Shown: positions 20,208-39,921, counted from the stretch's first letter. The stretch: 64,000 bases of DNA from Candidatus Azambacteria bacterium (GCA_003455995.1 DMPO01000006.1:38397-102396), one strand, 5' to 3'. Made by a program: numbers and translations. Notes: generated from the sequence alone by a model not told the origin.

Positions 20208-20281
20208 TTGACTATCATCATGGATTGTTATAGCATGATCGAAATCTAAAAAGTTGTTTAACATTTTTTAAAGGAGGGGAG
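20208..20281 (+). promoter_or_regulatory. Candidate promoter (TTGACT, -10-like element) plus strong Shine-Dalgarno (AAAGGAGGGG) ahead of the cytidylyltransferase gene
   Basis: This is the only sizable intergenic gap in the upstream plus-strand gene string. TTGACT at about 20208 is followed by a degenerate -10. GGAGGGGAG lies 6 nt before the ATG at 20282. Confidence 0.35.
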
Positions 20282-20737
20282 TTGATGAAGTTGATGAAAA
20301 AGAAAGCAAATGAAAGCGTAATAGGGTATGCCTATGTTTGCGCCGATTTATTGCATGCCGGTCACCTTGATCATTTGGAGTTCTGTAAAAAATTTTGCGA
20401 TAAATTGATAGTGGGGGTTCTTACCGATAATGCGGTAATGGAAAAAAAGCCAAGACCAATTTTTGGTTTTGAAGAACGATTGCGGCTGGTTCAGGCCTTG
20501 AAGTGCGTGGATATTGCCGTACCTCAAGAAACCTACTCGCCGCTTAATAACGCGCCCGTTATGGCGGATATTTTATTTGAAAGCGCCGATCATGGAGAAG
20601 GGGCGCTTGAAGAAGCGAAACGGGTTATGAGGGATATAGGCAAAAAGGTAATTGTTGACATATTTCGCCCTCGTCACAATAGACGACCGTCAAGCACCGC
20701 GATTAAGACCAAAATCAAAAAAGAGTGGCAAAAATAA
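20282..20737 (+). CDS. Cytidylyltransferase-like nucleotidyltransferase (glycerol-3-phosphate cytidylyltransferase TagD / RfaE domain II family)
   Basis: GYAYVCADLLHAGHLDHL carries the (T/H)xGH nucleotidyltransferase motif. 151 aa is the typical size. Confidence 0.65.
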   Translation: MMKLMKKKANESVIGYAYVCADLLHAGHLDHLEFCKKFCDKLIVGVLTDNAVMEKKPRPIFGFEERLRLVQALKCVDIAVPQETYSPLNNAPVMADILFESADHGEGALEEAKRVMRDIGKKVIVDIFRPRHNRRPSSTAIKTKIKKEWQK

Positions 20738-20756
20738 ATAATGGAGGTTTTGTTAG

Positions 20757-21992
20757 ATGGGGACAAGCATGCAAAAGTGGCAGAAAAGGATTTTATTTAT
20801 TTCGTGGATTACCTATGCCAGTTTTTATTTGTTAAGAGTTAACATTGCCGTGGCGATTCCCGGAATTTTGAGTGAATTTGGCATTTCAAAGACCGCCATG
20901 GGCGGAGTATTGACGGCCTTATTCGCGGCTTATGCCTTCGGGCAATTTGTAAACGGTACCATGGGGGATAAATTTGGAGCCAGGAGGATGGTAACAATTG
21001 GTTTACTGTCATCTGCTATTCTGAATATTGTCTTTGGGTTTACCCAGGGTTTTCTAATTGCGATGGTGGCTGTTTGGGGATTAAATGGTTTTTTCCAAGC
21101 CATGGGCTGGGGTCCGATTGTGAAAACAGTGGCTTGTTGGTTTCCGCCTCAAAAGAGGGGAATGGCCTCGGGTATTTTGGGGACTTCCTACATTCTGGGC
21201 AGTTCCATTTCTTTGCTTTTGGCCGGTTTTATCGCGGGTCATTTTGGCTGGCGCTGGGTTTTTTGGTTTCCCGCCATCATTACTATTATCGGCGCGCTTC
21301 ATTGGGCGCTAAGAATCAGAAATGGTTGTGAGAACGAAGGATTTGAGACCGTCGAGAGAATTGACGCGGCGTTAAAATATGCGGGCATTAAACATTCTCT
21401 CGGCATAATTCTTAAAGATAAAAAAGTATGGTTTGCTAGTTTATGTTTATTTGGTCTTAATATCGTGCGTTATGGTTTTTTAGATTGGGCTCCGACTTAT
21501 TTTTTCGAGGTTCAAAAAGCGAGTATTTCCATAGCCGCTTACAAAACCTTGATTTTTCCCATAGCGGGCGCGGTCGGCGCTTTAAGTTCCGGTTGGCTTG
21601 CCGAAAAAGTGTTTAAACAAAAAAAGGCGATAGTAGCCGCTATTATGTTGCTGATGTTGGCGGCAGCGATTTGGTTTTTTGTTAAAATTCCCGTCGGGAA
21701 TTGGGTTTTGAGCCTTGTTGTTTTAGCTATTATCGGTTTTTTGACTTTCGGTCCCCACATGATGATAGTGACTATTTTGCCGATGGATTTAGGCACAAAA
21801 GAGCGGGCATCATCCGTTGCCGGGTTCATAGACGGCTGGGGGTATATTGGCGCCGCCTTGACGGGCGTGGGGACGGGATTTTTGTTGGATCATTTTGGCT
21901 GGCATACCGCTTTTTATTTTTGGATATCGGGCGCGATTATTGCCGCCGCGTCGGTGGGGTATGTAATGGCGAGTTTAAAGAAAAAAATTTGA
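20757..21992 (+). CDS. MFS transporter, organophosphate:Pi antiporter (GlpT/UhpC-like) family
   Basis: 12 TM helices. The N-terminal YASFYLLRVNIAVAIP resembles GlpT/UhpC family N-termini. Confidence 0.55.
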   Translation: MGTSMQKWQKRILFISWITYASFYLLRVNIAVAIPGILSEFGISKTAMGGVLTALFAAYAFGQFVNGTMGDKFGARRMVTIGLLSSAILNIVFGFTQGFLIAMVAVWGLNGFFQAMGWGPIVKTVACWFPPQKRGMASGILGTSYILGSSISLLLAGFIAGHFGWRWVFWFPAIITIIGALHWALRIRNGCENEGFETVERIDAALKYAGIKHSLGIILKDKKVWFASLCLFGLNIVRYGFLDWAPTYFFEVQKASISIAAYKTLIFPIAGAVGALSSGWLAEKVFKQKKAIVAAIMLLMLAAAIWFFVKIPVGNWVLSLVVLAIIGFLTFGPHMMIVTILPMDLGTKERASSVAGFIDGWGYIGAALTGVGTGFLLDHFGWHTAFYFWISGAIIAAASVGYVMASLKKKI

Positions 21993-22005
21993 TTGATTTA
22001 TTCAG

Positions 22006-22040
22006 AAACCTCGATATCAATATCGAGGTTTTATTTTTTT
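22006..22040 (+). terminator. Rho-independent terminator
   Basis: AAACCTCGATA-TCAA-TATCGAGGTTT hairpin followed by a T8 run, directly after the MFS gene stop. Confidence 0.8.
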
Positions 22041-22043
22041 AGG

Positions 22044-22072
22044 TTGATTTTTAGAAAAAATAGATATATAAC
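22044..22072 (+). promoter_or_regulatory. Candidate sigma70-type promoter (TTGATT-N17-TATAAC)
   Basis: -35 TTGATT at 22044-22049, 17-nt spacer, -10 TATAAC at 22067-22072. The ATG at 22085 has no SD, which suggests a very short or leaderless transcript. Confidence 0.45.
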
Positions 22073-22084
22073 AATGTAAACTCC

Positions 22085-23395
22085 ATGCATGAGAATAAAC
22101 AAATTATCATAGACGGCTGGCGCGTTTATGATTTGCCGGTTGAATATAGCGACGCCGATTATGAAGAAGCGCGGGTTGAAATAACCAATCAAGTCCGCAA
22201 TACCCCGGGGCTTATCGCCTTGTTTGAATATGGCTGTATTCCTTTTCCCGGAATATCGGATATGGATTTTTGGGCGGTATTTTCGGATGATGCGGGAAAA
22301 ATGGGGCTTCCTTTACAACCTGCGCTTTCCGAAAAAACCAAATATTTAATGAGCCACCAAATCACGCTTTTTGCGGAAAAACATTATCGAAAAATGCTTT
22401 ACTTTGATCCTTGGACGACTTATGCCTGGCCCAATGGCCAAAGATTATTATATAAATCGGATGGTATTGAAAGGGATTTAAATTTTGAAAATATAAAATT
22501 TACCAAAGAGGAAAGAGATATTTTGAGCTTAGTTCTTGTTGAAGAATACTTGGGGTCGATAAATTCAACAATTTCCTTTTACGCCAAAAAAAAGTTGCCT
22601 GTGAGGCATATTCTGGAAACAATTAAAACCTGCGTTTATATCATTGAAGAAATCAATCTTATTACCGACAGAAAAATCAATTCTACTTTTCCGGAAGAAC
22701 TCAAAGATTTGAGATCCAAATGGTTTAAGATTGACCGGCAAGAAGCCGTAAAAAAACTAATAAAATTATTTTACGACGGATTACTTATCAGTTTTGAAGC
22801 CGCTTTTTCTTTGAGCAATTGGGCCAGTCGGCGTTCCGAATGGCTTCGTATTTCGGACTTGGGGGTGGAAAGAATAAATTTTTTAAACCATTTTTGTTTA
22901 GATAAAAAAGCCAAAAATATTTATCTTAACATTTTTAACGACTGGCGGGTTTTTACCGATTTCGCGCGCACTCCAGCGCAAGCATTGGAATTATCGATTA
23001 ATTCCTGCCGGGAAGTTGAAATAAAATTAGGACGATACTCCAAAGTGATTGATTTTTGCGTCGTTTTTCAACCGCTGGAATTGGCCGCTATTTATTTGGG
23101 TTTTATTTCCGAAAAAGGCTTATTGAGCGATAATTTGAGAAAAAACACTTTCAGCAATTTAGAAGAAGCACCGGTCTTCCGGCCCAAAATATTTCAGGAA
23201 AAAATAAAAATGATAAATGAGATCATTGAAATTTATAATAATAAACGGGTTGCGGATACAAGCGGGAAAGGATGGCATTTCGGAAACGGCAGTTTCCAAA
23301 ATTCTTTTGAACATAAAACGATTAAAAAGAAAATTTTGGTTTTTTGGCTTAAACAAAAATTTTGGCGCGCCATAAACGCGGCGATAAAAATTTAA
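22085..23395 (+). CDS. Hypothetical protein (possible minimal nucleotidyltransferase-fold N-terminus)
   Basis: 436 aa with no confident family assignment. The segment YGCIPFPGISDMDFWAVF loosely resembles a Pol-beta-type G[GS]...D.D motif. Confidence 0.35.
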   Translation: MHENKQIIIDGWRVYDLPVEYSDADYEEARVEITNQVRNTPGLIALFEYGCIPFPGISDMDFWAVFSDDAGKMGLPLQPALSEKTKYLMSHQITLFAEKHYRKMLYFDPWTTYAWPNGQRLLYKSDGIERDLNFENIKFTKEERDILSLVLVEEYLGSINSTISFYAKKKLPVRHILETIKTCVYIIEEINLITDRKINSTFPEELKDLRSKWFKIDRQEAVKKLIKLFYDGLLISFEAAFSLSNWASRRSEWLRISDLGVERINFLNHFCLDKKAKNIYLNIFNDWRVFTDFARTPAQALELSINSCREVEIKLGRYSKVIDFCVVFQPLELAAIYLGFISEKGLLSDNLRKNTFSNLEEAPVFRPKIFQEKIKMINEIIEIYNNKRVADTSGKGWHFGNGSFQNSFEHKTIKKKILVFWLKQKFWRAINAAIKI

Positions 23396-23398
23396 ATT

Positions 23399-24142
23399 AT
23401 GAAAAAAATTTTTGTAACCACAAGCTGGGATGACGGGCATAAGCTGGATTTAAAGGTGTCTGAACTTCTTACAAAATACGGCCTTACCGGAACTTTTTAT
23501 GTCGCGACAAATCAGGTTAATCGTCTTAACGATGATGATATTAGAGAAATTTCAAAAAGACATGAGATCGGAGCTCATACCGTGAATCATCCGCGCTTGA
23601 GCGCTATCAGCATTGATAAGGCCGCGGAGGAAATTAAAAATTCCAAAACAATTTTAGAAAATATTGTTGGCAAGCCGGTTGAGATGTTCGCTTATCCCTT
23701 CGGGGACTATAATGAGGAAGTTAAGTGCATTGTCGGTTCTTGTGGTTTTCGCGGCGCGCGAACAACCAAAGATTGGTCTTGGGATTTGCCGGAAGATGCT
23801 TTTGAAATGCCAACTTCTTTACATGTTTATCCTCATCCTTTAAGGCCGGGCGTTTCAAGCTTAAGAGCGCGGCTAAAACCGTTGTTCTATAATTTTCCTA
23901 AAATTATCCACCACCGGTTGCGGCCGGCGGCGATATTTTCTTGGCGAAATCTCGCCTTAGCAATGTTTGACCGCGCTTATGCCGAAGGCAGCGTCTTTCA
24001 TATTTGGGGCCATTCATGGGAAATTGAGAAATATGGGATGTGGAATGATTTTGAGGATTTACTTAAATATATTTCCTCGCATGTTGGTATAGTATATTCA
24101 ACAAATAGAGATATAATAAGGGCAAGTCTTGATAAAAAATAA
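23399..24142 (+). CDS. Polysaccharide deacetylase (CE4, NodB homology domain)
   Basis: TSWDDGH (TFDDG-like) and HTVNHPRLS His-His motifs. Confidence 0.7.
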   Translation: MKKIFVTTSWDDGHKLDLKVSELLTKYGLTGTFYVATNQVNRLNDDDIREISKRHEIGAHTVNHPRLSAISIDKAAEEIKNSKTILENIVGKPVEMFAYPFGDYNEEVKCIVGSCGFRGARTTKDWSWDLPEDAFEMPTSLHVYPHPLRPGVSSLRARLKPLFYNFPKIIHHRLRPAAIFSWRNLALAMFDRAYAEGSVFHIWGHSWEIEKYGMWNDFEDLLKYISSHVGIVYSTNRDIIRASLDKK

Positions 24143-24145
24143 ATA

Positions 24146-24796
24146 ATGCAATTCAAATCAATAAAATTAAAAAATACGCGCGAAGTTCTTAATCATACGC
24201 TTCATCACATTGGGGGCAAGGTTTTAGATTTAGGAGCTGGCGGCGCAAAATATAAAGGATTAATTTTGAAAAGAGCTGAGGAATATCGAGCTTGTGATGC
24301 CATAAAAAATGAAAGCATTGATGATATTTGCGATGTTCTGAATCTTAAATATCCTGAAGAGCATTTTGACACGATTGTTTCCACTCAAGTTATTGAGCAC
24401 ATACCCAATCCCTATCGTATGGTTTCTCAGATTAGAAAAGTTTTGAAAGTTGGCGGCAAAGCAATATTAACGGCGCCATTTTTGGTTCCAATGCATTCCG
24501 ATCCGGACGATTATTTCCGGTTTACGAAAGATGGTCTGTCAGAAATTTTTAAACAAGCGGGGTTTGAAATTTTAGAATCTGGCCATTATGGCGGATTTTT
24601 TATTGTTATGTCCGAAATGATTCATTTTTCCTGGTTTAATCCCTATAAATACCACAAGACAAGGATTAGTCGGTGGGGGGCCGGAGGGGGGCGGATTATG
24701 AAGTTAATTGAAAAAATAGCTACTTTTTTCGATAGATTTATTCCAACAAAATCGATTTTTGCAGGATCATATATTGTGGTAAGGAAATTAAAATAA
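24146..24796 (+). CDS. Class I SAM-dependent methyltransferase
   Basis: VLDLGAGGAKYKG is motif I. VIEHIPNP is the motif II region. Confidence 0.65.
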   Translation: MQFKSIKLKNTREVLNHTLHHIGGKVLDLGAGGAKYKGLILKRAEEYRACDAIKNESIDDICDVLNLKYPEEHFDTIVSTQVIEHIPNPYRMVSQIRKVLKVGGKAILTAPFLVPMHSDPDDYFRFTKDGLSEIFKQAGFEILESGHYGGFFIVMSEMIHFSWFNPYKYHKTRISRWGAGGGRIMKLIEKIATFFDRFIPTKSIFAGSYIVVRKLK

Positions 24797-24798
24797 TT

Positions 24799-26043
24799 AT
24801 GATGAAAATCATCATCTTGTCGGATTATTTTGATAATCGCGGAGGAGCCGTCAGTATCGCTAAAACAATGGCTTACGGCTTCAAACAAATGGGCCATAAT
24901 GTCGGCGTGATTACTACAGTCCAAGACAAGGCGCTCGCGGGCCAAAAAATAATTGATGGAGTTAAAATATGGTCTGTTTATTCCAATTATAATCTTTTTT
25001 GGCGCGCTTATCGCAGTTTATACAATCCCCAGACCGTAAAACATATCGCGAAAATTATTGAAGAAATAAAACCGGATGTGGTTCACGCCAATAATATCCA
25101 TGTCCACCTTTCATACCACGCCCTGAAAATTGCCCAAAAAAGCGGGGCCAGAGTATTTTTGACCGCTCACGATGTCATGCCTTTTCATTATGGTAAATTG
25201 ACAGAATTTATAAACCCGAATAATTTATCCTGTCCCGAAAAATTCAATTACAAAATCAGCGTTTGGCGGCAAATAAAAAGAGCGGGCAAAACCTATAACC
25301 CTTTTCGTAATTTAATCATTAGATATTATCTTGAATATGTCGATAAAATTTTTGCCGTTAGCGGCGCGTTGAAAAACGCGCTTAATGACAATGGAATAAA
25401 AAATGTTGAAGTAATTCATAACGGCATTGATGTTTCGGCATGGGCAGTAAACGAAGCGGCCATAGAAGTTTTCAAAGAGAAGCATAATATTCGAAACAAA
25501 AAGGTTGTTTTGTTTGGCGGACGCCTTGGTTGGCTGAAAGGAGGGCGTGAAATTTGCTTGGCGATGAAAAAGGTGATTGAAACAATACCCAACGCGGTTC
25601 TTTTGCTTGCCGGAAAAATAGACGAAGAAGTTAAAGAAATTCTTGATTTTGCCGACAAACTGGGAATTAACAAAAATATTATTGCCGCCGGCTGGCTTTC
25701 GGGTGGCGAGCTTAAAGCCGCCTATAATGTCGCGGATATCGTGACGGCGCCGTCGATTTGTTTCGATTCTTTTCCGACCGTAAATTTGGAAGCGATGGCT
25801 TGCAAAAAGCCGGTTATCGCCACCTGTTTTGGCGGAAGCCGCGAAGCGGTAATAGACGGCGAAACCGGCTATATCGTAAATCCGTTTAACATAGATAAGT
25901 TAGCAGATAAAATAATATATCTATTAAAAAATTCTGAAGTTGCCAGAAAATTCGGCGAAGCGGGGTATGAGAGGGTGAAAAAAGAATTCAGTTCGGAAAA
26001 AATGATCGGTGATTATTTAAATTGGTACGGAAAAATTTTTTAA
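24799..26043 (+). CDS. GT4 family glycosyltransferase
   Basis: VVLFGGRLGWLKGG...NLEAMACKKPVIATCFGG signature. Confidence 0.7.
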   Translation: MMKIIILSDYFDNRGGAVSIAKTMAYGFKQMGHNVGVITTVQDKALAGQKIIDGVKIWSVYSNYNLFWRAYRSLYNPQTVKHIAKIIEEIKPDVVHANNIHVHLSYHALKIAQKSGARVFLTAHDVMPFHYGKLTEFINPNNLSCPEKFNYKISVWRQIKRAGKTYNPFRNLIIRYYLEYVDKIFAVSGALKNALNDNGIKNVEVIHNGIDVSAWAVNEAAIEVFKEKHNIRNKKVVLFGGRLGWLKGGREICLAMKKVIETIPNAVLLLAGKIDEEVKEILDFADKLGINKNIIAAGWLSGGELKAAYNVADIVTAPSICFDSFPTVNLEAMACKKPVIATCFGGSREAVIDGETGYIVNPFNIDKLADKIIYLLKNSEVARKFGEAGYERVKKEFSSEKMIGDYLNWYGKIF

Positions 26044-27416
26044 TGAAAACTATTTTTATTACCGCTTATCATCCTTTTATCTCCAAAAACATTCTTAATA
26101 CGAATGTGTTTGGCATTTTGAAACAAAGAAAAAATTTAAGAATCATTCTTTTAGTTCCGGTTATTTTGAAAGATTTTTTTGAAAACAATTACCGTTTCGA
26201 CAATGTAGTGATTGAGAGTATCGATCTGGCGCCATTCTCAAAATCCCGCCTCAGCAATTTTTTTTCAAGAGCCGCTTTCTTTTTTACTTACAATCACTGG
26301 ATTAGATATAAAAGGATGGAATATTTAAATGCCCATTGGAGTTTTTATAACCTCGTGAAATTTCGTGTTTTTATGGTATTAACGCGAATTTTATCTGGGC
26401 ATAAAATTTTAAATAAAATTTTCAGATTTTTTGACTGGCGTTATTCGCCCAATAATTTTTATAAAGATTATTTTGAAAAATACAAACCCGATATTGTTTT
26501 TTCAACCGATGTTTATGACGATTTTGACCAGGCGCTGATTAAAGAAGCGAAAATAAGAAAGATCTTTGTTATCGGCATGATCCGCTCCTGGGATAATAAT
26601 ATCAGTAAAGGACTAATGAGATGCTTTCCGGATAAATTAATTGTTAATAATGAGGTAATTAAGAAAGAGGCGATAAAACTTCATAATTATCCAGAAGGAA
26701 ATATTTTCATCGGCGGCCTGCCGCAGTTTGACGATTATCTTAAGGCGCCTTTCAAAAGCCGAGAAGAGTTTTTCGAGTCGGCGGGCGGAGATCCCGAAAA
26801 AAGAACGGTTTTATTTTCACCCGGCAGCCGGGGAATTTCCGCGGATGCCAATATTATTATTTGCGAAGCGTTTAAAGCCGCAAAGGAAAGTGGTGATTTG
26901 CCCAAAGATATTCAATTTTTTATCAGAAACCATCCCACCAGGCCAGATAGGGCGCTGGAAAAATTCAAAAATGATTCCGATTTTATTATCGAAATGCCAG
27001 GAAAAATTAAAAATAGCGGGAAATTTCTCGAATTTTCACTTCAAGACAATCGCCATCTTATAGATACCATATATTATTCCGATGTTGTCGTCTGGATTGT
27101 AACCTCGATAGGACTGGACTCTTTAGTTTTTGATAAGCCGCAAATCGTAGTTGATTTTGACGGCCTTGAAAATAAGTCATACTGGTTAAGCGTCAAGCGG
27201 TTCAATGACGAAGAACACATGCTTTTATTCTTTGAAACAGGAGCCGTAAAAATAGCCGATAATTTGGAAAATTTAATTGTTTATATTAAAGAATATCTTG
27301 AAAATCCCTCCATTGATCGCGAAGGAAGAAAAAAAGCCGCTTTGCAACAGCTTTGGAAGGCGGATGGAAAATCAAGCGAAAGAATCGCAAATTTCATTTT
27401 ATCATTCCTTTTTTAA
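26043..27416 (+). CDS. Putative CDP-glycerol glycerophosphotransferase-like protein (TagB/TagF family), uncertain
   Basis: 458 aa soluble protein. The C-terminal half has a FFIRNHPTRPD segment reminiscent of the Glyphos_transf conserved His-Pro region. Context includes a cytidylyltransferase and an OPA transporter. Start placed at the TAATG overlap at 26043. Confidence 0.35.
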   Translation: MKTIFITAYHPFISKNILNTNVFGILKQRKNLRIILLVPVILKDFFENNYRFDNVVIESIDLAPFSKSRLSNFFSRAAFFFTYNHWIRYKRMEYLNAHWSFYNLVKFRVFMVLTRILSGHKILNKIFRFFDWRYSPNNFYKDYFEKYKPDIVFSTDVYDDFDQALIKEAKIRKIFVIGMIRSWDNNISKGLMRCFPDKLIVNNEVIKKEAIKLHNYPEGNIFIGGLPQFDDYLKAPFKSREEFFESAGGDPEKRTVLFSPGSRGISADANIIICEAFKAAKESGDLPKDIQFFIRNHPTRPDRALEKFKNDSDFIIEMPGKIKNSGKFLEFSLQDNRHLIDTIYYSDVVVWIVTSIGLDSLVFDKPQIVVDFDGLENKSYWLSVKRFNDEEHMLLFFETGAVKIADNLENLIVYIKEYLENPSIDREGRKKAALQQLWKADGKSSERIANFILSFLF

Positions 27417-28131
27417 GCTGGCGGAATTTATTTTCCATTTTCTCCCAGTCGGAAGGAATGTTGATGTCTTCATCGTAAAAATCGCTGACAATATAGGGCT
27501 CTTGCTTCTCGCCGCCGAAATAGCAGGGATTTTTTCCGTACAAAATTTTTGGCTTCAAAACAAAAACCAGATCATTTTTGACATAATATTTTGGCAGGAG
27601 CTGGCGGCGCGCCGGAGCGTATTTTACATTCTGGCCTATGGCGTTTAACAGTTCATAACTGTTGCCCCTTTTTACAGGCTGGACAATCCAATAAGGATGA
27701 TGATGGGCGGCCGATAATTCGGAAAGAGGGATCACCACATCTGGGTCTTTTTTCAAAAACAGTTCTATCGCCTCGTCAACCTGTTTAACGTTTCTTAAAG
27801 AATTGGGAGGCATCAGCAAGACGATGGCGTCGGTTTTATAATTTTCATATTTTTTCAGCCATTCTATGGCGTGCCTTAACACCGGCTCCATTTGCGTCGC
27901 GCTCCCGGCTAATTTTTTGGGGCGCAAAAAGGGCGTTTCGGCGCCGTATTTTTTTGCCACTTTGGCTATTTCGGGGCTATCGGTGGAAACAATGGTCCGG
28001 TTTATAAGAGGGCTTTTCAGAGCCGTCTCAATAGCCCAGGCAATCAACGGTTTACCGCAGAAATTTCTTATATTTTTTCCGGGAACCCCTTTTGAATCGC
28101 CCCGGGCAGGCACAATCGCCACGATTTTCAT
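27394..28131 (-). CDS. Acylneuraminate-type cytidylyltransferase (CMP-nonulosonic acid synthetase, NeuA/PseF/LegF family)
   Basis: MKIVAIVPARGDSKGVPGKNIRNFCGKPLIAWAIETA is the canonical CTP_transf_3 N-terminus. Confidence 0.8.
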   Translation of the reverse strand: MKIVAIVPARGDSKGVPGKNIRNFCGKPLIAWAIETALKSPLINRTIVSTDSPEIAKVAKKYGAETPFLRPKKLAGSATQMEPVLRHAIEWLKKYENYKTDAIVLLMPPNSLRNVKQVDEAIELFLKKDPDVVIPLSELSAAHHHPYWIVQPVKRGNSYELLNAIGQNVKYAPARRQLLPKYYVKNDLVFVLKPKILYGKNPCYFGGEKQEPYIVSDFYDEDINIPSDWEKMENKFRQLKKGMIK

Positions 28132-28158: not shown

Positions 28159-28187
28159 ATCCCGCAACGAACGCGGGATTGTTTTTT
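28159..28187 (-). terminator. Hairpin terminator between B12-rSAM gene and CMP-sugar synthetase gene
   Basis: ATCCCGC-AACGAAC-GCGGGAT stem-loop flanked by A/T runs on both strands. Confidence 0.6.
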
Positions 28188-29847
28188 ACATTTCCAAAAT
28201 TTTATATATGTCGCCAGAATCAATGTATCCTCTGGCCTTGACGAAAATATCATCCGGCATGTCGCTGTAATTCAGCGGCTCGCCGGTCTTGGAATTGCGC
28301 AAAACCTTTGTGGCGTCATCCAGCTCCAAAATATACCGGCGCAGGTTTTCATCGCAAACCGGCTCGCCGACAAAATCAAAAGTAATTCCGAAAACTTCAC
28401 GCAGAATTTTTTGAACCTTGGATTGGTGGCCCATTTCCGTTCCCGGATACCAGGTGGCGGTGAACATTTTCTTGTTTACCGAGTCGGCGGACTTGCCGCG
28501 CGTACCATAAAATATCTCTTGCCACTCGATAAAAGCGACGCTCATTTTTAGGTCCTCAAGGGTCTCGGTTGGGTATCCCATTATCCAGGTGCAATTAGCG
28601 TGAATGCCGGCATTTTCGCAATCTATAACGCCCTCTATCATAGAGCTGGGGAATTCGCAAAATTTTCCATTGGCAATAATACCCTTAATCCCTTTTTTGA
28701 GAATAAATCCGCCTTTATTCATCGCTTTCAGGACTTTCGGCGAGGCGCTTTCGGCGCCGAAGCCGATATAAATGCATCCGGCTTCCGCCATTAAATTAAA
28801 TCCCTTTGATTCATCGAGGCGCGCGTGCGTCCCCCAGCGGATATTTAGCGGCTTAAGAAGGGGGACTAAATCAATGATTCTTTTATGGTCGATGGCGAAA
28901 TTATCGTCCACCATCCCAATGAAATCAACTCCATATTTTTCAATATGCATTCTGAATTCCTTGGCAAGATTTTGCGCTGATCGCGCGCCGTAATTTTTTT
29001 CGCCTTGCGCGCCGCGATAGCAGAAAGCGCAATTATACGGACAGCCCCGCGAAGAAACAAAGTTCGTGCTCCGATTCATCGTGAATGAAGCCGCTGAACT
29101 GTTGTTGGCGGAAGCGCCCCAAATTGGATTGCAGATATAGTATTCCAGAATCTTATTGCCAAAAACATCTTCTTTTAGAAAATCCAAATCGGCGAAAGGA
29201 ATGCAGTCCAAATCCCGCGGTCGGTCGCCTTCGTAAACGAAGCGATGCCGGCCGAATATTTCTCCTTTGCCGACTATCGAACCCAAATAATAGGGTTCCA
29301 ATTTTCCGGAATTAATCGCCCGCAAAAAACCCGTTTTTTTGAGAATTCTCGCGTCGTGGGCGGCTTTGACGATTACATCGTCGCCTTCGGAACGGACTAT
29401 GCCGTCCAGGTCGGGGATGTAATTGAAAAGCCCCGCTCTCAATTCGGTGGCGAGGCCGCCGCCGGAAACAAGAAAAACGATCGGCGCCAATTTGCGAACC
29501 ATTTTAGCGACTTTTTCCTGCCAGCGCAATGTGGTGATCATTCCCGAAAGGCCGACCAGATCCGGCTCGCCATGAACTTCAAAATGTTTTTTTATCAGTT
29601 CAAAAACTTCCTGTTCGGTAAGGTGCCGGCCGTTTATTCGATAGCCGTTCAAATCAACTATCGAAACATTAACCTCATAGTTATCGCGCAAATTAGTTGC
29701 CAGAAGCAGGGGGCCTTGGGGCGTGTTGTTTGGCGCCGCCGCTTCTCTTAAAGGCATATTGATAAAAACAACATTTAAGCCGCGCAGATCGGCCGGTTTG
29801 ATATCTTTGATGATATCCGCCGGGTGAATATAATCGCAACTTTTCAT
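28186..29847 (-). CDS. B12-binding domain radical SAM enzyme (class B rSAM, putative methyltransferase)
   Basis: CPYNCAFCY is the CxxxCxxC radical SAM cluster motif. The N-terminal ~150 aa has the cobalamin-binding Rossmann-like layout. The GGAGGAG SD is visible on the minus strand. Confidence 0.8.
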   Translation of the reverse strand: MKSCDYIHPADIIKDIKPADLRGLNVVFINMPLREAAAPNNTPQGPLLLATNLRDNYEVNVSIVDLNGYRINGRHLTEQEVFELIKKHFEVHGEPDLVGLSGMITTLRWQEKVAKMVRKLAPIVFLVSGGGLATELRAGLFNYIPDLDGIVRSEGDDVIVKAAHDARILKKTGFLRAINSGKLEPYYLGSIVGKGEIFGRHRFVYEGDRPRDLDCIPFADLDFLKEDVFGNKILEYYICNPIWGASANNSSAASFTMNRSTNFVSSRGCPYNCAFCYRGAQGEKNYGARSAQNLAKEFRMHIEKYGVDFIGMVDDNFAIDHKRIIDLVPLLKPLNIRWGTHARLDESKGFNLMAEAGCIYIGFGAESASPKVLKAMNKGGFILKKGIKGIIANGKFCEFPSSMIEGVIDCENAGIHANCTWIMGYPTETLEDLKMSVAFIEWQEIFYGTRGKSADSVNKKMFTATWYPGTEMGHQSKVQKILREVFGITFDFVGEPVCDENLRRYILELDDATKVLRNSKTGEPLNYSDMPDDIFVKARGYIDSGDIYKILEM

Positions 29848-30032: not shown

Positions 30033-30911
30033 ATGAAAAAAATTGGATTCATTGGGTTGGGGACTATGGGTTTGCGGATGGTGCAGAGATTGCTTTCCGC
30101 CGGGTATAAGCTGACGGTATATAACCGGACGGCGGAAAAAGCGAACGCGCTGGTGGATAACGGCGCGCGATTTGCCGTCAATCCGAGGCAACTCGCGGAG
30201 CGTTCCGATGTAATTATTACAATGGTCAGTGATGGTCGGGCTGTTCGCGATGTTGCCGAGGGCGTATGGGGGGCATTTTCAGTAGCACAGCGGGGAACGG
30301 TTTTTATTGACTGCAGTACCATTTCGGTCGGGACAACCAAATATCTCGCTTTGAGAGCGGAAAATTTGGGATGCTATTGGCTGGACGCGCCGGCGCTTGG
30401 AGGCCCAGCGGCGGCTGAAGCCGGAGAATTGTCGTTCGTCGTTGGCGGGCCAAAAAATATTCTAGATGAAAATATAGAGATTTTTAACGCCCTCGGCAGA
30501 GTTACTTGGATGGGGGAGTGCGGCATGGGCCAGGCGGCCAAAATTGTCCATAATATGGCCTGCGGCATATCGTTAGCGGCATTCAGCGAAGCGATTATTC
30601 TGGGCGAAAAACTTGGTCTGGAAAGAAAACAAACGATAGAGACGCTATTAAACGGCGCGGTTGGAAGTCCTTTATTAAAGGTGAAGGCGCCTAAATTTGA
30701 AGAAAATGATTTTGAACCCGCTTTTGCGTTAACTATGATGTTAAAGGATTTAACCTTGGCGGAAGACGCCGCCAAAGAATCGGAACTGTTTCTCCCGGCG
30801 CTTTCGGCGGTCAAAAAGCTCTACAATTTAGCGAGAATACGCGGATTTGGCGACGAGGACTCGTCGGCCGTTATTAAAGCGTTTCAATTTTTGACGGAGG
30901 TGAAGCGATGA
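30033..30911 (+). CDS. NAD(P)-dependent beta-hydroxyacid dehydrogenase (HIBADH/tartronate-semialdehyde reductase/6PGDH-like family)
   Basis: MKKIGFIGLGTMGLRMVQRLLSAGYKLTVYNRT is the classic dinucleotide-binding N-terminus of this family. Confidence 0.75.
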   Translation: MKKIGFIGLGTMGLRMVQRLLSAGYKLTVYNRTAEKANALVDNGARFAVNPRQLAERSDVIITMVSDGRAVRDVAEGVWGAFSVAQRGTVFIDCSTISVGTTKYLALRAENLGCYWLDAPALGGPAAAEAGELSFVVGGPKNILDENIEIFNALGRVTWMGECGMGQAAKIVHNMACGISLAAFSEAIILGEKLGLERKQTIETLLNGAVGSPLLKVKAPKFEENDFEPAFALTMMLKDLTLAEDAAKESELFLPALSAVKKLYNLARIRGFGDEDSSAVIKAFQFLTEVKR

Positions 30912-32836
30912 ATGGCGCGGTGATAAAGATTATCCCCCAGTCGGAATTTGTCCGCGTTTGGCAAACAGGCGCAAATTTTTACGCTACGCTCTCTTTGATT
31001 GCCGACATGTGCCGCCTGAACGCGCTTTCGGCGGTTAAACGCGCCGGTTCCGGCCATCTTGGTTCCAGTTTCAGCGCGATGGATATTGTAACATATCTTT
31101 ATTGGTGGGAGATGAATACGATTCGGAAGGGCTTTGATAATCCGAATCGCGATATCTATTTTTCGTCAAAGGGACACGATGTTCCGGGGTTATACGCCGC
31201 GCTTTTTTCGCTTGGTATAATTTCGGAGGAACTTTTTCTGAAACTGCGCCGTCTCGGCGGCCTTCACGGCCATCCGGATATAAACAATTTAGGTATTGAG
31301 GCCAATTCTGGGTCGTTGGGAATGGGAATTTCCAAGGGCCGCGGAATGGCTTGGGCTAAAGAATATTTGGGATTGTCCGGACGAGTTTTCGTGATGACCG
31401 GCGATGGTGAGTTCCAGGAAGGGCAGAATTACGAGGCGCTTCAGGGAGCGGCGCAGTTAATGCAGGATCGCTTAATTGTGGTTATGGACCACAACAAGGT
31501 CCAAAGCGATAAATTGGTCAAAGAAATAGTTGACTTGGGCGATCTTGAAGCGAAGTTCTCGTCATTCGGTTGGTATGTTGAGCGTTGCAACGGCCATGAT
31601 TTTAAGGCGCTTGAAAAAACTTTCGCCAGAATCGATAAAATTACACAAAAACCAAAAATAATAATTGCCAACACAATCAAGGGCAAGGGCGTTTCTTTTA
31701 TGGAACACCCATATGCTCTTAAAGAAAATGGCATATATAAATGGCACGCCGGAGCGCCGGATGACGATTCTTACAAGGTAGCGTTTAAAGAATTGTTTGA
31801 AAAAATTAACACGCGGCTTGCAAAACTATTTTTGGATTCAATCACTACCAAAGAGGTGTGTGATGAAAAAGAGCCGGTCAATCAGAAAAAAGTATCCGGC
31901 GAATATATTGCCGATTCTTACGGCAAGGCGCTTGTGGCATTGGCCGCCGAGCGGGACGATTTCGTGGTATTGGACGCCGATTTGGCGGCGGATTGCCGAT
32001 TGCGCGATTTTGAAAAACAATTTCCGGAACGGTTTATCGAATGCGGCATCGCCGAGCAGGATATGGTGTCCATGGCCGGCGGCTTGGCGCGGCAGGGGAT
32101 TCTCCCGATTGTAAATTCCTTTGGAGCGTTTCTGTCATCGCGCGCCAATGAGCAAATTTACACCAACGCTTGCGAACGGTCCAAGATTATCTATGTTTGC
32201 CATTATGCCGGCCTCATTCCGGCCGGACCGGGAAAATCGCATCAGTGTCTTCGGGATGTCTCATTGTTCGGCGCGTTGCCGGATATGACTATCATTCAGC
32301 CATGCAATGCATGGGAGACGCGGCAGGCGCTTAATTATTGCGTCAATTTTACGGCCAACAGTTCTATGTTGCGTCTCAATATTGGTCCTTCTCCGCGCGT
32401 AATTGAGTTGCTGGCAGAATATGCTTTCACAAAAGGCATAGGCGCTGAACTGACAAAAGGGGAAGACGCGATTCTTTTCGCGTATGGGCCGGTGATGCTC
32501 AATGAAGCGCTTGCCGCTTCGGAGATATTGGCGAAAAAAGGATTTGGATTAAAAGTTGTCAATATGCCGTGGCTGAATTCAGTGGATGTTGAATGGTTAA
32601 GAGCGGTTTTAGGTCCGACTAAAAAAATATTCGTACTGGAAGACCACAATATAATCGGCGGTTTAGGAGATTTTCTGTTAAATCAATTTGTCACCAATAA
32701 ACTTTTGGAAGGGAAGACGTTCCGAAAATTCGGGATAACCGGATTGCCGGCCTGCGGCCGACCTGATGAAGTATTGAAATTTCACGGCCTTGATGGCGCA
32801 ACGTTTGCGAAAAAATCCAACAATAAGGAGGAATGA
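30908..32836 (+). CDS. Transketolase-family ThDP enzyme, fused N- and C-terminal halves
   Basis: GSGHLGSSFSAMDIV, GHPD...NSGSLGMGISKGRGMAWA and TGDGEFQEGQNYEAL in the N-terminal half. FIECGIAEQDMVSMAGGLA in the C-terminal half. An insertion of about 50 aa lies between the halves. Confidence 0.75.
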   Translation: MNGAVIKIIPQSEFVRVWQTGANFYATLSLIADMCRLNALSAVKRAGSGHLGSSFSAMDIVTYLYWWEMNTIRKGFDNPNRDIYFSSKGHDVPGLYAALFSLGIISEELFLKLRRLGGLHGHPDINNLGIEANSGSLGMGISKGRGMAWAKEYLGLSGRVFVMTGDGEFQEGQNYEALQGAAQLMQDRLIVVMDHNKVQSDKLVKEIVDLGDLEAKFSSFGWYVERCNGHDFKALEKTFARIDKITQKPKIIIANTIKGKGVSFMEHPYALKENGIYKWHAGAPDDDSYKVAFKELFEKINTRLAKLFLDSITTKEVCDEKEPVNQKKVSGEYIADSYGKALVALAAERDDFVVLDADLAADCRLRDFEKQFPERFIECGIAEQDMVSMAGGLARQGILPIVNSFGAFLSSRANEQIYTNACERSKIIYVCHYAGLIPAGPGKSHQCLRDVSLFGALPDMTIIQPCNAWETRQALNYCVNFTANSSMLRLNIGPSPRVIELLAEYAFTKGIGAELTKGEDAILFAYGPVMLNEALAASEILAKKGFGLKVVNMPWLNSVDVEWLRAVLGPTKKIFVLEDHNIIGGLGDFLLNQFVTNKLLEGKTFRKFGITGLPACGRPDEVLKFHGLDGATFAKKSNNKEE

Positions 32837-32840
32837 AGAT

Positions 32841-34155: not shown

Positions 34156-34169
34156 GAGAAGGAGGGCAT

Positions 34170-37718: not shown

Positions 37719-39920
<2,202 letters not shown>

Positions 39921-39921
39921 T

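What the first reader, a model, noticed from the sequence alone, without database searches (positions are those of the whole stretch)
20282..27416. CDP-glycerol/teichoic-acid-like module (cytidylyltransferase plus OPA-type MFS plus TagF-like protein plus CE4 deacetylase) with its own promoter and SD
A TagD/RfaE-like cytidylyltransferase with a strong SD follows the only clear promoter-like gap. It is immediately followed by a GlpT/UhpC-like organophosphate transporter. Downstream come a polysaccharide deacetylase, a GT4 and a possible TagB/F-like glycerophosphotransferase. Together they suggest import of glycerol-3-phosphate (or a sugar-phosphate), its CDP-activation and polymerisation into a polyol-phosphate glycopolymer. 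The 436-aa protein at 22085-23395 is unassigned. It has its own TTGATT-N17-TATAAC promoter and a near-leaderless start.
Basis: partly seen in the sequence, partly recalled or inferred. Interest (0 to 1): 0.5.

Follow-up and report, generated by a model that had tools for sequence, protein, structure and literature searches.

The report
Head-group salvage cassette feeding glycan decoration
In this tiny groundwater bacterium, a transporter plus activating enzyme sit exactly where sister genomes carry genes for making a carbon-phosphorus compound, so the cell probably scavenges a small phosphorus head-group and attaches it to its surface sugar polymer with a previously undescribed enzyme family.

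Summary
The genes are real and at the stated coordinates. The window comes from a Candidatus Azambacteria (CPR/Parcubacteria) genome. The CDP-glycerol/teichoic-acid reading is only partly right.

There are two transcription units. The first is cytidylyltransferase plus OPA-type MFS, closed by a strong terminator.

The cytidylyltransferase is not an orthologue of TagD, HldC/RfaE or Fom1. In sister genomes with the same flanking gene order, cytidylyltransferase plus MFS is replaced by Fom1-like cytidylyltransferase–PEP mutase, phosphonopyruvate decarboxylase and Fe-alcohol dehydrogenase. That cassette makes CMP-2-hydroxyethylphosphonate.

U436 is a family with no Pfam or NCBIfam model. It has a pol-β nucleotidyltransferase fold and an invariant G…GxSDxD motif. 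In all 14 informative loci it lies next to a nucleotide-activating cassette.

Best reading: a small organophosphonate or organophosphate is imported, CMP-activated, and transferred by U436 onto a GlcN-bearing glycan intermediate. The TagF-like protein tracks a convergent CMP-sugar synthetase and may add an ulosonic acid. The substrate is unproven.

The parts
20208..20236 (+). Promoter-like site TTGACT-N17-TAGCAT in the 96-nt gap upstream of the cytidylyltransferase. The SD AAAGGAGGGGAG follows at about 20270-20281.
   Evidence: The -35 hexamer is conserved in L003. Consensus match only.
20285..20737 (+). Small stand-alone cytidylyltransferase (PF01467, HxGH = H25-A-G-H28). It belongs to a distinct subfamily found widely in CPR bacteria and DPANN archaea.
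   Evidence: Best PDB hit is human ethanolamine-phosphate cytidylyltransferase 3elb (E 3e-15). TagD, HldC and Fom1 all score only 28-43 bits.
20757..21992 (+). MFS transporter of the organophosphate:phosphate antiporter type. It is the putative importer of the head-group.
   Evidence: GlpT 1pw4 scores 159.8 bits. R45, R269, Y270 and Y393 are conserved. K46, K80, N162, H165 and Y266 are replaced. Orthologues at 59-64% identity pair with either a PF01467 or a LicC-like cytidylyltransferase.
22005..22040 (+). Intrinsic terminator (12-bp hairpin plus T-run) that closes the cytidylyltransferase-MFS unit.
   Evidence: dG -15.3, z -5.0. A compensatory change is present in L030.
22044..22072 (+). Promoter TTGATT-N17-TATAAC, 12 nt upstream of ATG 22085, giving a near-leaderless transcript.
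   Evidence: Both hexamers and the spacing are identical in L030 while flanking bases differ.
22085..23395 (+). U436, a member of an undescribed protein family with a pol-beta nucleotidyltransferase-like N-terminal domain plus helical and beta domains. It is the proposed transferase of the CMP-activated head-group.
   Evidence: Gene context.
23399..24142 (+). Cytosolic CE4 deacetylase with no signal peptide. Motifs: TSWDDGH at residues 8-14, H60-T-V-N-H64, and FAYPFG.
   Evidence: It follows U436 in most loci.
24146..24796 (+).
   Evidence: Its presence varies among relatives.
24799..26043 (+). GT4 retaining glycosyltransferase. Its weak best matches are BshA, MshA and GlgA-like families.
   Evidence: It is 49-76% identical across U436 loci.
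26043..27416 (+). TagF-like GT-B protein (PF04464). Invariant residues include the H297-P298 motif and R181-S-W-D-N185.
27394..28131 (-). CMP-ulosonic/nonulosonic acid synthetase-like cytidylyltransferase (PF02348), convergent with and overlapping the TagF-like gene.
   Evidence: PseF model 136.9 bits, below its 205.7 cut-off. Its adjacency to the TagF-like gene is conserved in L008, L011, L014, L028, L029 and L030.
28186..29847 (-). B12-binding radical SAM enzyme, probably a methyltransferase. Its target is unknown.
   Evidence: It is conserved next to the CMP-sugar synthetase in relatives.

Best explanation
The region is a head-group decoration module of a large Wzx/Wzy-type glycan cluster in a Candidatus Azambacteria genome. 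It has two units.

**Unit 1 (20285-21992): salvage and activation cassette.** The OPA-type MFS imports a small organophosphonate or organophosphate, probably in exchange for phosphate. The adjacent cytidylyltransferase joins it to CMP using CTP.

**Unit 2 (22085-27416): use of the activated donor on the cytoplasmic face.**
- The GT4 adds an N-acetyl-hexosamine to a lipid-linked intermediate.
- The cytosolic CE4 removes the acetyl group.
- The methyltransferase tailors the product.
- U436, a pol-beta-fold enzyme with a G...GxSDxD metal-binding motif, transfers the phosphono/phospho head-group from the CMP conjugate to the glycan and releases CMP. This is the chemistry LicD and fukutin perform with the same superfold.
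- The TagF-like GT-B protein most likely adds the CMP-activated ulosonic acid made by the convergent synthetase and the NeuB cluster.

**Likely head-group.** The favoured candidate is 2-hydroxyethylphosphonate or a close analogue such as 2-aminoethylphosphonate. Sister genomes make CMP-HEP de novo at this exact position.

**Shown:** domain identities, operon structure, cassette swap, family-wide gene coupling, fold.

**Inferred:** direction of transport, identity of the head-group, the transferase activity of U436, and the acceptor.
For: 1. **Synteny swap.** L029 (U436 72% identical) has the same gene order as the window on both sides. The order is PMT_2, GDP-Man-dehydratase-like, GT4, MT | cassette | U436, CE4, GT4, TagF-like, CMP-synthetase(-), rSAM(-). 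Flanking proteins are 69-88% identical. L029 carries NUDIX + Fom1-like + Ppd::Fe-ADH where the window has cytidylyltransferase + MFS. L030 (75%) has cytidylyltransferase + MFS like the window.
2. **The swapped-in cassette is genuine.** Its PEP mutase scores 381 bits against TIGR02320 (cut-off 319.6). All five copies carry the EDKxxxxxNS motif. Its Ppd scores 485.6 against a cut-off of 312.5. Its N-terminal domain hits the Fom1 CyTase structure 5x3d at 202.8 bits.
3. **Family-wide coupling.** In 14 of 14 dereplicated U436 loci with readable flanks, a nucleotide-activating cassette is adjacent:
   - PF01467 + MFS: 4 loci.
   - Fom1-Ppd-ADH: 8 loci, plus 1 partial.
   - LicC/PntC-like + orthologous MFS: 1 locus.
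   - ADP-heptose genes: 1 locus.
4. **Phylogeny.** On an NJ tree of U436, the phosphonate type is basal and widespread. The salvage type arises twice.
5. **Active site unchanged.** None of the 99 columns invariant in the nine phosphonate-linked U436 proteins differs in the window clade.
6. **U436 fold.** The model has pLDDT 90. The best Foldseek hits are ANT(4') (prob 0.93), LinB (0.89) and Tam41. G50, G56, D59 and D61 are invariant down to 15% identity. Eleven of 50 relatives hit PF01909 below threshold.
7. **Transporter.** The MFS keeps the phosphate-binding arginines of GlpT but not the other substrate residues. Published AepP, a GlpT-like 2-aminoethylphosphonate permease, shows the same pattern (PMC8316502; PMC4598623).
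8. **Literature.** Nucleotidyl activation is the rule in phosphonate tailoring, and the downstream transferases are largely unknown (PMC6697681). HEP occurs in glycans and is thought to be abundant in the environment (PMC8942020; PMC13576164).
Against: - The window's cytidylyltransferase is only about 30% identical to Fom1-type domains. Its best solved relative is a phosphoethanolamine enzyme, so the donor could be a phosphate ester.
- The cytidylyltransferase-MFS pair also occurs without U436, for example in Woesearchaeota L027. Cytidylyltransferase homologues sit in other contexts in L025 and L026. The cassette is therefore not tied to U436.
- One U436 locus (L024) follows ADP-heptose genes.
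- Absence of PEP mutase was tested only in the 64-kb window, not in the whole genome.
- The loci were collected by searching with U436 itself, so the coupling is measured from that side only.
- There are no biochemical data.
Confidence: 0.45

Rival explanations
1. The MFS imports glycerol-3-phosphate. The cytidylyltransferase is a TagD analogue that makes CDP-glycerol. The TagF-like protein adds or polymerises glycerol-phosphate into a teichoic-acid-like polymer. U436 is unrelated.
For: - PF04464 hit above threshold.
- The MFS is closest to GlpT.
- Some database sources name cytidylyltransferase homologues 'glycerol-3-phosphate cytidylyltransferase'.
- The TagF-like gene is in the same operon as U436.
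Against: - The TagD equivalog scores 43.3 against a cut-off of 165.4.
- GlpT residues K46, K80, N162, H165 and Y266 are not conserved.
- The TagF-like gene is equally present in loci that carry the phosphonate cassette instead (L008, L013, L028, L029). It is absent from more distant cytidylyltransferase+MFS or LicC+MFS loci (L022, L004). It therefore does not co-vary with the cytidylyltransferase.
- The TagF-like gene stays next to the CMP-sugar synthetase even when it is separated from U436, as in L028.
- No TagO, TagA or TagGH genes were seen in the window.
Confidence: 0.15
2. The architecture is the same as in the best explanation, but the salvaged head-group is an ordinary phosphate ester taken from host lipids or the environment, such as phosphoethanolamine or phosphocholine. 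U436 would transfer it as LicD transfers phosphocholine.
For: - The best solved relative of the cytidylyltransferase is human ethanolamine-phosphate cytidylyltransferase (E 3e-15, about 45% identity over 67 residues).
- The alternative partner of the orthologous MFS in L004 is closest to LicC, the phosphocholine cytidylyltransferase (50.2 bits). PntC scores 33.2 bits.
- CPR bacteria are thought to depend on hosts for lipids (general knowledge).
Against: - The cassette it replaces makes a phosphonate, and the window's U436 keeps all 99 residues invariant in the phosphonate-linked homologues.
- A genuine Fom1 HEP cytidylyltransferase domain also has the ethanolamine-phosphate enzyme as its second-best PDB hit, at 75 bits. 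That similarity therefore does not discriminate between substrates.
Confidence: 0.2
3. U436 is a conventional NTP-dependent nucleotidyltransferase of the ANT/LinB type. It would adenylylate or cytidylylate a sugar hydroxyl or a small molecule. Its position next to activating enzymes would reflect shared glycan-cluster membership, not substrate channelling. The product of the cytidylyltransferase would be consumed by the TagF-like or another enzyme.
For: - The closest folds are aminoglycoside and lincosamide nucleotidyltransferases.
- Relatives give sub-threshold PF01909 and PF18765 hits, and none hits LicD.
- The L024 context is ADP-heptose, not a small head-group.
Against: - Start/stop overlaps tie U436 to the last gene of the phosphonate cassette (L006, L023, L029).
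- U436 is adjacent to three or four non-homologous activating enzymes in 14 of 14 informative loci. That is hard to explain without a functional link.
- The structural matches are weak.
Confidence: 0.12
4. This is the heptose reading. The cytidylyltransferase is an HldC/RfaE-domain-II-type heptose-1-phosphate adenylyltransferase, and the MFS imports a heptose phosphate.
For: - The top NCBIfam hit is rfaE_dom_II (66.9 bits).
- One U436 locus (L024) carries GmhA, HldA and an HldC-GmhB fusion in the same slot.
Against: - 66.9 bits is far below the 181.5 cut-off.
- It equals the 66.4 bits scored by a bona fide Fom1 cytidylyltransferase domain. The genuine CPR HldC scores 165.3.
- The window's cytidylyltransferase is closer to Fom1-type domains (E 4e-15) than to HldC (E 1e-9 to 4e-11).
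Confidence: 0.04

Closest known systems
Phosphonyl tailoring (Pnt) pathways of cell-surface phosphonoglycans: PntC or Fom1-type cytidylyltransferases coupled to PEP mutase (Rice et al. 2019, PMC6697681; Li & Horsman 2022, PMC8942020)
   Same: - A small head-group is activated as a CMP conjugate by a PF01467 or PF12804 enzyme encoded inside a glycan cluster.
- Sister loci of the window carry the full Fom1-like, Ppd and Fe-ADH (HEP) route immediately upstream of the same downstream genes.
   Different: - The window has no PEP mutase, Ppd or Fe-ADH within 64 kb. An OPA-type MFS and a non-orthologous stand-alone cytidylyltransferase take their place, which implies salvage rather than synthesis.
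- The candidate transferase is not LicD-like or sulfatase-like. It belongs to an undescribed pol-beta-fold family.
Lic pathway of Streptococcus pneumoniae and Haemophilus: LicB uptake, LicC activation, LicD transfer of phosphocholine
   Same: - The logic is the same: import a head-group, activate it with CMP, and transfer it to a surface glycopolymer with a nucleotidyltransferase-superfold enzyme.
- One relative (L004) uses a LicC-like enzyme with the orthologous MFS.
   Different: - There is no LicA kinase, which implies an already phosphorylated or phosphonylated substrate.
- The transporter is of OPA/GlpT type, not a LicB-type choline permease.
- U436 has no LicD (PF04991) homology.
Wall teichoic acid machinery: TagD, TagB/TagF and TarL
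   Same: - A PF01467 cytidylyltransferase and a PF04464 GT-B protein lie in one cluster.
   Different: - The cytidylyltransferase fails the TagD equivalog threshold.
- Sequence similarity of the TagF-like family to solved TagF/TarL is marginal (E 0.91).
- The TagF-like gene pairs with a CMP-sugar synthetase.
- It also matches the BFO_1060 family of TagB-like nonulosonic-acid transferases (PMC5420450).
AepP, the GlpT-related 2-aminoethylphosphonate permease of Pseudomonas putida (Murphy et al. 2021, PMC8316502)
   Same: It is an OPA-family MFS in which the phosphate-binding residues of GlpT are kept and other substrate-contacting residues are not. It imports a phosphonate.
   Different: - AepP serves catabolism. 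Here the transporter is paired with an anabolic cytidylyltransferase.
Aminoglycoside and lincosamide nucleotidyltransferases ANT(4') and LinB
   Same: Both have an N-terminal pol-beta nucleotidyltransferase domain with a G-x-S/DxD motif followed by a helical domain. They are the best Foldseek matches.
   Different: - TM-scores are only 0.2-0.34 and sequence identity is 11-13%.
- U436 is about 180 residues longer and has extra beta-rich C-terminal elements.
- Its genomic context points to CMP-conjugate donors rather than NTPs.

Membership tests
TagD, glycerol-3-phosphate cytidylyltransferase (TIGR01518) | Score at or above the equivalog cut-off (165.4 bits) | tested here: not met
   43.3 bits. 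PDB TagD 1coz scores 35.7 bits.
TagD, glycerol-3-phosphate cytidylyltransferase (TIGR01518) | HxGH nucleotide-binding motif of the PF01467 superfamily | tested here: met
   H25-A-G-H28 in the translation. PF01467 scores 44.8 bits against a cut-off of 21. The motif is shared by the whole superfamily, so it is not specific to TagD.
HldC / RfaE domain II, heptose-1-phosphate adenylyltransferase (TIGR02199) | Score at or above the equivalog-domain cut-off (181.5 bits) | tested here: not met
   66.9 bits. Calibration: a Fom1-type domain scores 66.4 and a genuine CPR HldC scores 165.3.
Fom1-type HEP cytidylyltransferase | Close similarity to the Fom1 CyTase domain, and fusion or adjacency to PEP mutase | tested here: not met
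   37.8 bits to 5x3d, against 202.8 bits for CPR Fom1-like domains. No PEP mutase in the window. About 30% identity to CPR Fom1 domains.
Organophosphate:phosphate antiporter (OPA) family of MFS: GlpT, UhpT, PgtP | Paired substrate-binding arginines (GlpT R45 and R269) in TM1 and TM7 | tested here: met
   Both align to Arg in the phmmer alignment with 1pw4. Y270 and Y393 are also kept.
Organophosphate:phosphate antiporter (OPA) family of MFS: GlpT, UhpT, PgtP | Membership of a specific equivalog (GlpT, UhpT, UhpC or PgtP) by curated cut-off | tested here: not met
   TIGR00881 scores 242.7 against a cut-off of 407.75. GlpT scores 198.6 against 632.55. UhpC scores 184.1 against 564. K46>V, K80>Q, N162>G, H165>Y, Y266>N.
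TagB/TagF/TarL CDP-alditol phosphotransferases (PF04464) | Pfam gathering threshold and GT-B fold resembling TagF | tested here: met
TagB/TagF/TarL CDP-alditol phosphotransferases (PF04464) | Catalytic histidines equivalent to those of TagF/TarL, and a CDP-glycerol or CDP-ribitol supply | tested here: inconclusive
   The family has an invariant H297-P298 and a near-invariant H214. These could not be mapped, because the profile-to-PDB alignment is marginal (E 0.91). No TagD or TarI orthologue was identified.
BFO_1060 family, TagB-like nonulosonic acid transferases of Tannerella (NF046086) | Curated cut-off (200 bits) | tested here: not met
   49.4 bits, over residues 146-265 only.
BFO_1060 family, TagB-like nonulosonic acid transferases of Tannerella (NF046086) | HP motif, and association with CMP-nonulosonic acid synthesis genes | tested here: met
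   Invariant H297-P298. A convergent PF02348 synthetase is conserved in seven relatives, with NeuB nearby. Motif definition from PMC5420450.
LicD / fukutin phosphotransferases (PF04991) | Sequence match to the LicD model | tested here: not met
   No hit for U436 or for any of 50 relatives at E up to 1.
Pol-beta nucleotidyltransferase superfamily | G-[SG]-x(7-13)-D-x-[DE] motif on the conserved strand-turn-strand, and the matching fold | tested here: met
CE4 polysaccharide deacetylases (PF01522) | Pfam threshold plus the catalytic Asp-Asp and His-x3-His metal motifs | tested here: met
   80.1 bits against a cut-off of 23.1. D11-D12 lie in TSWDDG, and H60/H64 lie in HTVNH.
De novo phosphonate biosynthesis cluster (Ppm-Ppd based) | PEP mutase carrying the EDKxxxxxNS motif | tested here: not met
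   tblastn of Fom1-like, Ppd and Fe-ADH against the 64-kb window finds only the cytidylyltransferase. The motif is present in sister loci. The rest of the genome was not available.

The most novel reading that the evidence does not exclude
Some CPR bacteria have lost carbon-phosphorus bond synthesis but still decorate their surface glycan with a phosphonate. They would import free 2-hydroxyethyl- or 2-aminoethylphosphonate through a GlpT-like antiporter, cytidylylate it with a stand-alone ECT-like enzyme, and install it with U436. U436 would then be the first member of a new pol-beta-fold family of phosphonyl transferases, the missing last step of phosphonoglycan biosynthesis. The same transporter-cytidylyltransferase cassette is shared with DPANN archaea, which implies cross-domain exchange of a head-group salvage device among ultra-small symbionts.
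Probability: 0.3. Interest if true: 0.75.

Novelty: new variant of a known kind. Interest (0 to 1): 0.6.

Why it matters
- **The transferase gap.** About half of microbial phosphonate pathways are thought to decorate cell surfaces. The enzymes that move the activated phosphonate onto glycans are still largely unknown (PMC6697681, PMC8942020). U436 is a concrete, testable candidate. The natural cassette swap (synthesis versus salvage in otherwise syntenic genomes) works like a ready-made genetic experiment linking it to CMP-activated head-groups.
- **CPR biology.** The result suggests that CPR bacteria carry phosphonate- or phospho-decorated surface glycans. It also suggests that genome reduction replaced a three-enzyme C-P pathway with a transporter. 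Both bear on how these episymbionts depend on their surroundings and present their surface to hosts. No paper in the searched library links phosphonate biosynthesis to CPR bacteria.
- **Annotation.** 'CDP-glycerol glycerophosphotransferase' labels on CPR PF04464 proteins, and 'glycerol-3-phosphate cytidylyltransferase' or 'rfaE' labels on this cytidylyltransferase subfamily, are probably over-specific.

Tried and rejected
1. **Direct sequence assignment of U436.** Pfam, NCBIfam and PDB phmmer gave nothing.
3. **afdb50 fold library.** Not available.
4. **Heptose reading.** Rejected after calibrating rfaE_dom_II scores on genuine Fom1 and HldC domains from related loci.
5. **Fom1 orthology of the window's cytidylyltransferase.** Rejected: 37.8 bits against 202.8 bits to 5x3d.
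6. **Convergent specificity-changing substitutions in U436 between salvage and synthesis loci.** None found.
7. **Mapping the TagF/TarL catalytic histidines onto the TagF-like protein.** The profile search against PDB gave an alignment too weak to use.
8. **Source names for distant U436 relatives.** Uninformative.
9. **Rfam scan of the window.** No riboswitch or other RNA found.
10. **The paper on GlpT selectivity residues (PMC2749764).** Not held. PMC4598623 and PMC8316502 were used instead.
11. **Genome and metagenome scans with the U436 profile.** Only 15 loci were returned.

Full report
**Source and setting.**
- The 436-aa protein occurs with identical sequence on 514-583-kb contigs from Rifle aquifer metagenomes and on GCA_036517875.1.
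- The TagF-like protein is identical to one from Candidatus Azambacteria bacterium RIFCSPLOWO2_02_FULL_42_10.
- The window is therefore a piece of a CPR/Parcubacteria genome.
- Positions 1 to about 48,000 form one very large glycan cluster. It contains:
  - many GT4, GT2 and PMT_2-type glycosyltransferases;
  - at least seven SAM methyltransferases;
  - sugar-nucleotide enzymes;
  - a Wzx flippase, a Bac_transf initiating transferase and a Wzy_C/O-antigen-ligase-like protein.
- No TagO, TagA or TagGH-type genes were seen.

**Checking the observation.**
- Four corrections are needed:
  1. A SAM methyltransferase at 24146-24796 was missed.
  2. The TagF-like gene probably starts at ATG 26043.
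  3. The cytidylyltransferase probably starts at ATG 20285.
  4. A 12-bp hairpin at 22005-22032 followed by a T-run lies directly after the MFS gene. It has dG -15.3 kcal/mol and z -5.0 against shuffles.
- The TTGATT-N17-TATAAC promoter at 22044-22072 ends 12 nt before ATG 22085.
- In L030 the proteins are 75-85% identical to those of the window. There the hairpin carries a compensatory T>C/A>G pair, and both promoter hexamers are unchanged while neighbouring bases differ.
- The region is therefore two transcription units: cytidylyltransferase plus MFS, then U436-CE4-MT-GT4-TagF-like.

**The cytidylyltransferase.**
- It has the HxGH motif and passes PF01467.
- It passes no specific equivalog: rfaE_dom_II 66.9 bits (cut-off 181.5) and TagD 43.3 bits (cut-off 165.4).
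- Against solved structures it is roughly equidistant from all characterised subfamilies:
  - human ethanolamine-phosphate cytidylyltransferase, best, E 3e-15;
  - HldC;
  - the Fom1 CyTase domain;
  - TagD;
  - choline-phosphate cytidylyltransferase.
A Fom1-type domain from L012 scores 66.4 on rfaE_dom_II and 51.8 on TagD, the same pattern as the window protein. The genuine HldC of L024 scores 165.3.
- The rfaE hit is therefore generic, and neither heptose nor glycerol chemistry is indicated.
- The enzyme is also not a Fom1 orthologue: 37.8 bits to 5x3d, against 202.8 for CPR Fom1-like domains.
- It belongs to a subfamily of stand-alone enzymes at 50-80% identity, common in CPR bacteria and DPANN archaea.

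**The transporter.**
- It is closest to GlpT (1pw4, 159.8 bits) and below every NCBIfam equivalog cut-off.
- In the alignment with 1pw4, native residue numbers equal the chain index plus one.
- R45, R269, Y270 and Y393 are conserved. K46, K80, N162, H165 and Y266 are replaced by V, Q, G, Y and N.
- R45 is essential for substrate binding in GlpT. K46, K80, R269 and H165 contribute (PMC4598623).
- The published 2-aminoethylphosphonate permease AepP is a GlpT relative. It keeps the phosphate-binding residues but not those that affect binding of the glycerol moiety (PMC8316502).
- The window's MFS is thus an organophosph(on)ate carrier of undetermined specificity, and glycerol-3-phosphate is not favoured.

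**The 436-aa protein (U436).**
- It has 46 close homologues, all from Parcubacteria-type metagenomes and all unannotated.
- A profile search of 1.84 billion representatives finds 919 relatives at E ≤ 1e-3 and 234 at E ≤ 1e-10. They share mainly the N-terminal 250 residues.
- The AlphaFold model is confident: pLDDT 90, pTM 0.90.
- Foldseek ranks ANT(4'), LinB, ANT(4')-IIb, Tam41 and Pol mu first, with probabilities 0.93 and 0.89 for the top two.
- G50, G56, D59 and D61 are invariant in a 50-sequence alignment reaching 15% identity. S58, H91 and R174 are nearly invariant.
- Eleven of 50 relatives touch PF01909 and eight touch PF18765, all below threshold. None touches LicD.
- U436 is therefore a new family within the pol-beta nucleotidyltransferase superfold.

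**Gene context, the decisive evidence.** I fetched 30 loci and compared their ORFs with reference proteins. After dereplication, 14 U436 loci have readable flanks. All 14 have a nucleotide-activating cassette next to U436.

| Cassette next to U436 | Loci |
|---|---|
| Stand-alone PF01467 cytidylyltransferase + OPA-type MFS | window, L030, L022, L020 |
| Fom1-like cytidylyltransferase–PEP mutase + phosphonopyruvate decarboxylase + Fe-alcohol dehydrogenase | L006, L008, L012, L013, L018, L023, L028, L029; L017 partial |
| LicC/PntC-like nucleotidyltransferase + orthologous MFS (64% identical to the window's) | L004 |
| GmhA, HldA and an HldC-GmhB fusion | L024 |

- The Fom1-like proteins are genuine:
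  - PEP mutase equivalog passed, 381 bits against 319.6;
  - EDKxxxxxNS motif present in all five;
  - Ppd equivalog passed, 485.6 bits against 312.5;
  - 202.8 bits to the Fom1 CyTase structure.
- By analogy with fosfomycin biosynthesis, that cassette makes CMP-2-hydroxyethylphosphonate (PMC6697681; PMC8942020).

**The cassette swap.**
- L029 (Parcubacteria GCA_016186325.1) has the same gene order as the window on both sides, with flanking proteins 69-88% identical. It carries NUDIX, Fom1-like and a Ppd::Fe-ADH fusion exactly where the window has cytidylyltransferase and MFS.
- On an NJ tree of U436, the phosphonate-synthesis type is basal and scattered throughout. The cytidylyltransferase-MFS type appears twice, once in the window+L030 clade nested among synthesis-type loci and once in L022.
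- Of the 99 alignment columns invariant in the nine synthesis-linked U436 proteins, none differs in the window clade. Nothing suggests that the window's U436 changed its donor.
- No PEP mutase, Ppd or Fe-ADH is present in the 64-kb window. The rest of the genome could not be checked.
- The simplest reading is that the cytidylyltransferase-MFS pair supplies, by import, the same or a very similar CMP-activated head-group that sister genomes synthesise.
- HEP is known in actinomycete phosphonoglycans and is argued to be environmentally abundant (PMC8942020; PMC13576164).

**Cautions.**
- The stand-alone cytidylyltransferase is only about 30% identical to Fom1-type domains.
- The cytidylyltransferase-MFS pair also exists without U436 in a Woesearchaeota contig. 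There the MFS is 59-62% identical and the cytidylyltransferase 56% identical.
- The cassette therefore evolved independently of U436, and its native substrate may be a phosphate ester such as phosphoethanolamine or phosphocholine.
- The L004 partner enzyme is closer to LicC than to PntC.
- The L024 context is ADP-heptose. It fits only if U436 transfers 'phospho-X' from NMP-P-X donors in general, or if the adjacency there is incidental.
- U436's nearest folds are NTP-using enzymes. The proposed LicD-like chemistry (attack on the distal phosphorus with CMP release) is inferred from context, not shown.

**The downstream genes.**
- CE4 and GT4 follow U436 in most loci.
- The CE4 has no signal peptide and has intact Asp-Asp and His-x3-His motifs.
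- The GT4 weakly resembles the BshA and MshA GlcNAc transferases.
- A GT4 plus deacetylase pair suggests that a hexosamine with a free amine is made on the cytoplasmic face. This is inferred.

**The TagF-like protein.**
- It passes PF04464.
- Its sequence similarity to solved TagF/TarL is marginal.
- It has more than 500 homologues across Parcubacteria, far more than U436.
- It occurs in both phosphonate-type and salvage-type loci of the window's clade. It is absent from more distant U436 loci.
- It stays next to a convergent PF02348 CMP-sugar synthetase even when separated from U436, as in L028.
- It also hits the BFO_1060 family (49.4 bits). Members of that family are TagB-like pseudaminic/legionaminic acid transferases of Tannerella (PMC5420450).
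- I therefore favour a CMP-ulosonic acid transferase role. Use of the cytidylyltransferase's product cannot be excluded.

**Verdict.**
- The teichoic-acid label is too specific and probably wrong in its chemistry.
- The overlooked 436-aa protein is the most interesting element.
- Confidence is moderate for the architecture (salvage, CMP activation, transfer by U436) and lower for the phosphonate identity of the head-group.
- No paper in the held library connects phosphonate biosynthesis with CPR bacteria. That is not proof of novelty.

Noticed in passing
window 30033-35042 (+), together with 27394-28131 (-): An unusual ulosonic-acid-type gene set. It comprises a 3-hydroxyisobutyrate-dehydrogenase-like protein, a fused full-length transketolase (642 aa), a KdsC-like HAD phosphatase, an SDR, a NeuB-family synthase and a CMP-sugar synthetase. 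This does not match the canonical Neu5Ac, Pse, Leg or Kdo pathways.
   Followed up: partly
window 28186-29847 (-) and 44804-46333 (-); also L004 and L024: B12-binding radical SAM enzymes are embedded in the glycan cluster. Locus L004 has five. Their weak best matches include P-methyltransferase families (PhpK, Sden_1168). In L022 one directly follows U436. A Fom3-like methylation of a CMP-phosphonate, or C-methylation of sugars, are both possible.
   Followed up: no
L027 5457-7744 (Woesearchaeota, GCA_019322485.1): The cytidylyltransferase-MFS pair is conserved as a unit in a DPANN archaeon. Its MFS is 59-62% identical and its cytidylyltransferase 56% identical to the CPR versions. A second PF01467 gene, a weak CDP-alcohol phosphatidyltransferase hit and an LPG_synthase_TM protein lie beside it. 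This suggests cross-domain transfer of the cassette.
   Followed up: partly
L008 7728-9995, L012 7722-9986, L013 7713-9986, L029 6794-9004: Phosphonopyruvate decarboxylase and the Fe-alcohol dehydrogenase are fused into one polypeptide of about 740-755 aa in the window's sister clade. They are separate genes in L006, L018 and L023.
   Followed up: partly
L024 5356-9174: In one Nealsonbacteria-like contig, U436 directly follows a complete ADP-heptose set: GmhA, HldA and an HldC-GmhB fusion. The HldC-GmhB fusion itself is unusual.
   Followed up: partly
window 14525-16213 (+) and 1403-2584 (+): Two sizeable proteins (562 aa and 393 aa) inside the glycan cluster have no Pfam match. The 562-aa protein is conserved at 68-72% identity in L028 and L029.
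   Followed up: no
window 1-64000: Base composition is patchy. GC is 0.45-0.50 at about 28-36 kb and 44-50 kb, 0.35-0.40 over most of the cluster, and 0.27-0.31 at 58-62 kb. Cumulative GC skew rises almost monotonically. This may indicate a mosaic origin for parts of the glycan cluster.
   Followed up: no
window 37719-40779 (+): A Wzy_C/O-antigen-ligase-like protein fused to TPR repeats (733 aa) is followed by a protein with a weak lamin-tail-domain hit.
   Followed up: no
L026 6001-8648 (Verrucomicrobia, Lacunisphaera): A 65%-identical homologue of the cytidylyltransferase lies close upstream (about 0.8 kb) of a sulfatase-family (PF00884) protein. That superfamily contains LtaS- and EptA-type phospho-head-group transferases. 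This points to a different transferase partner for the same activating enzyme.
   Followed up: no
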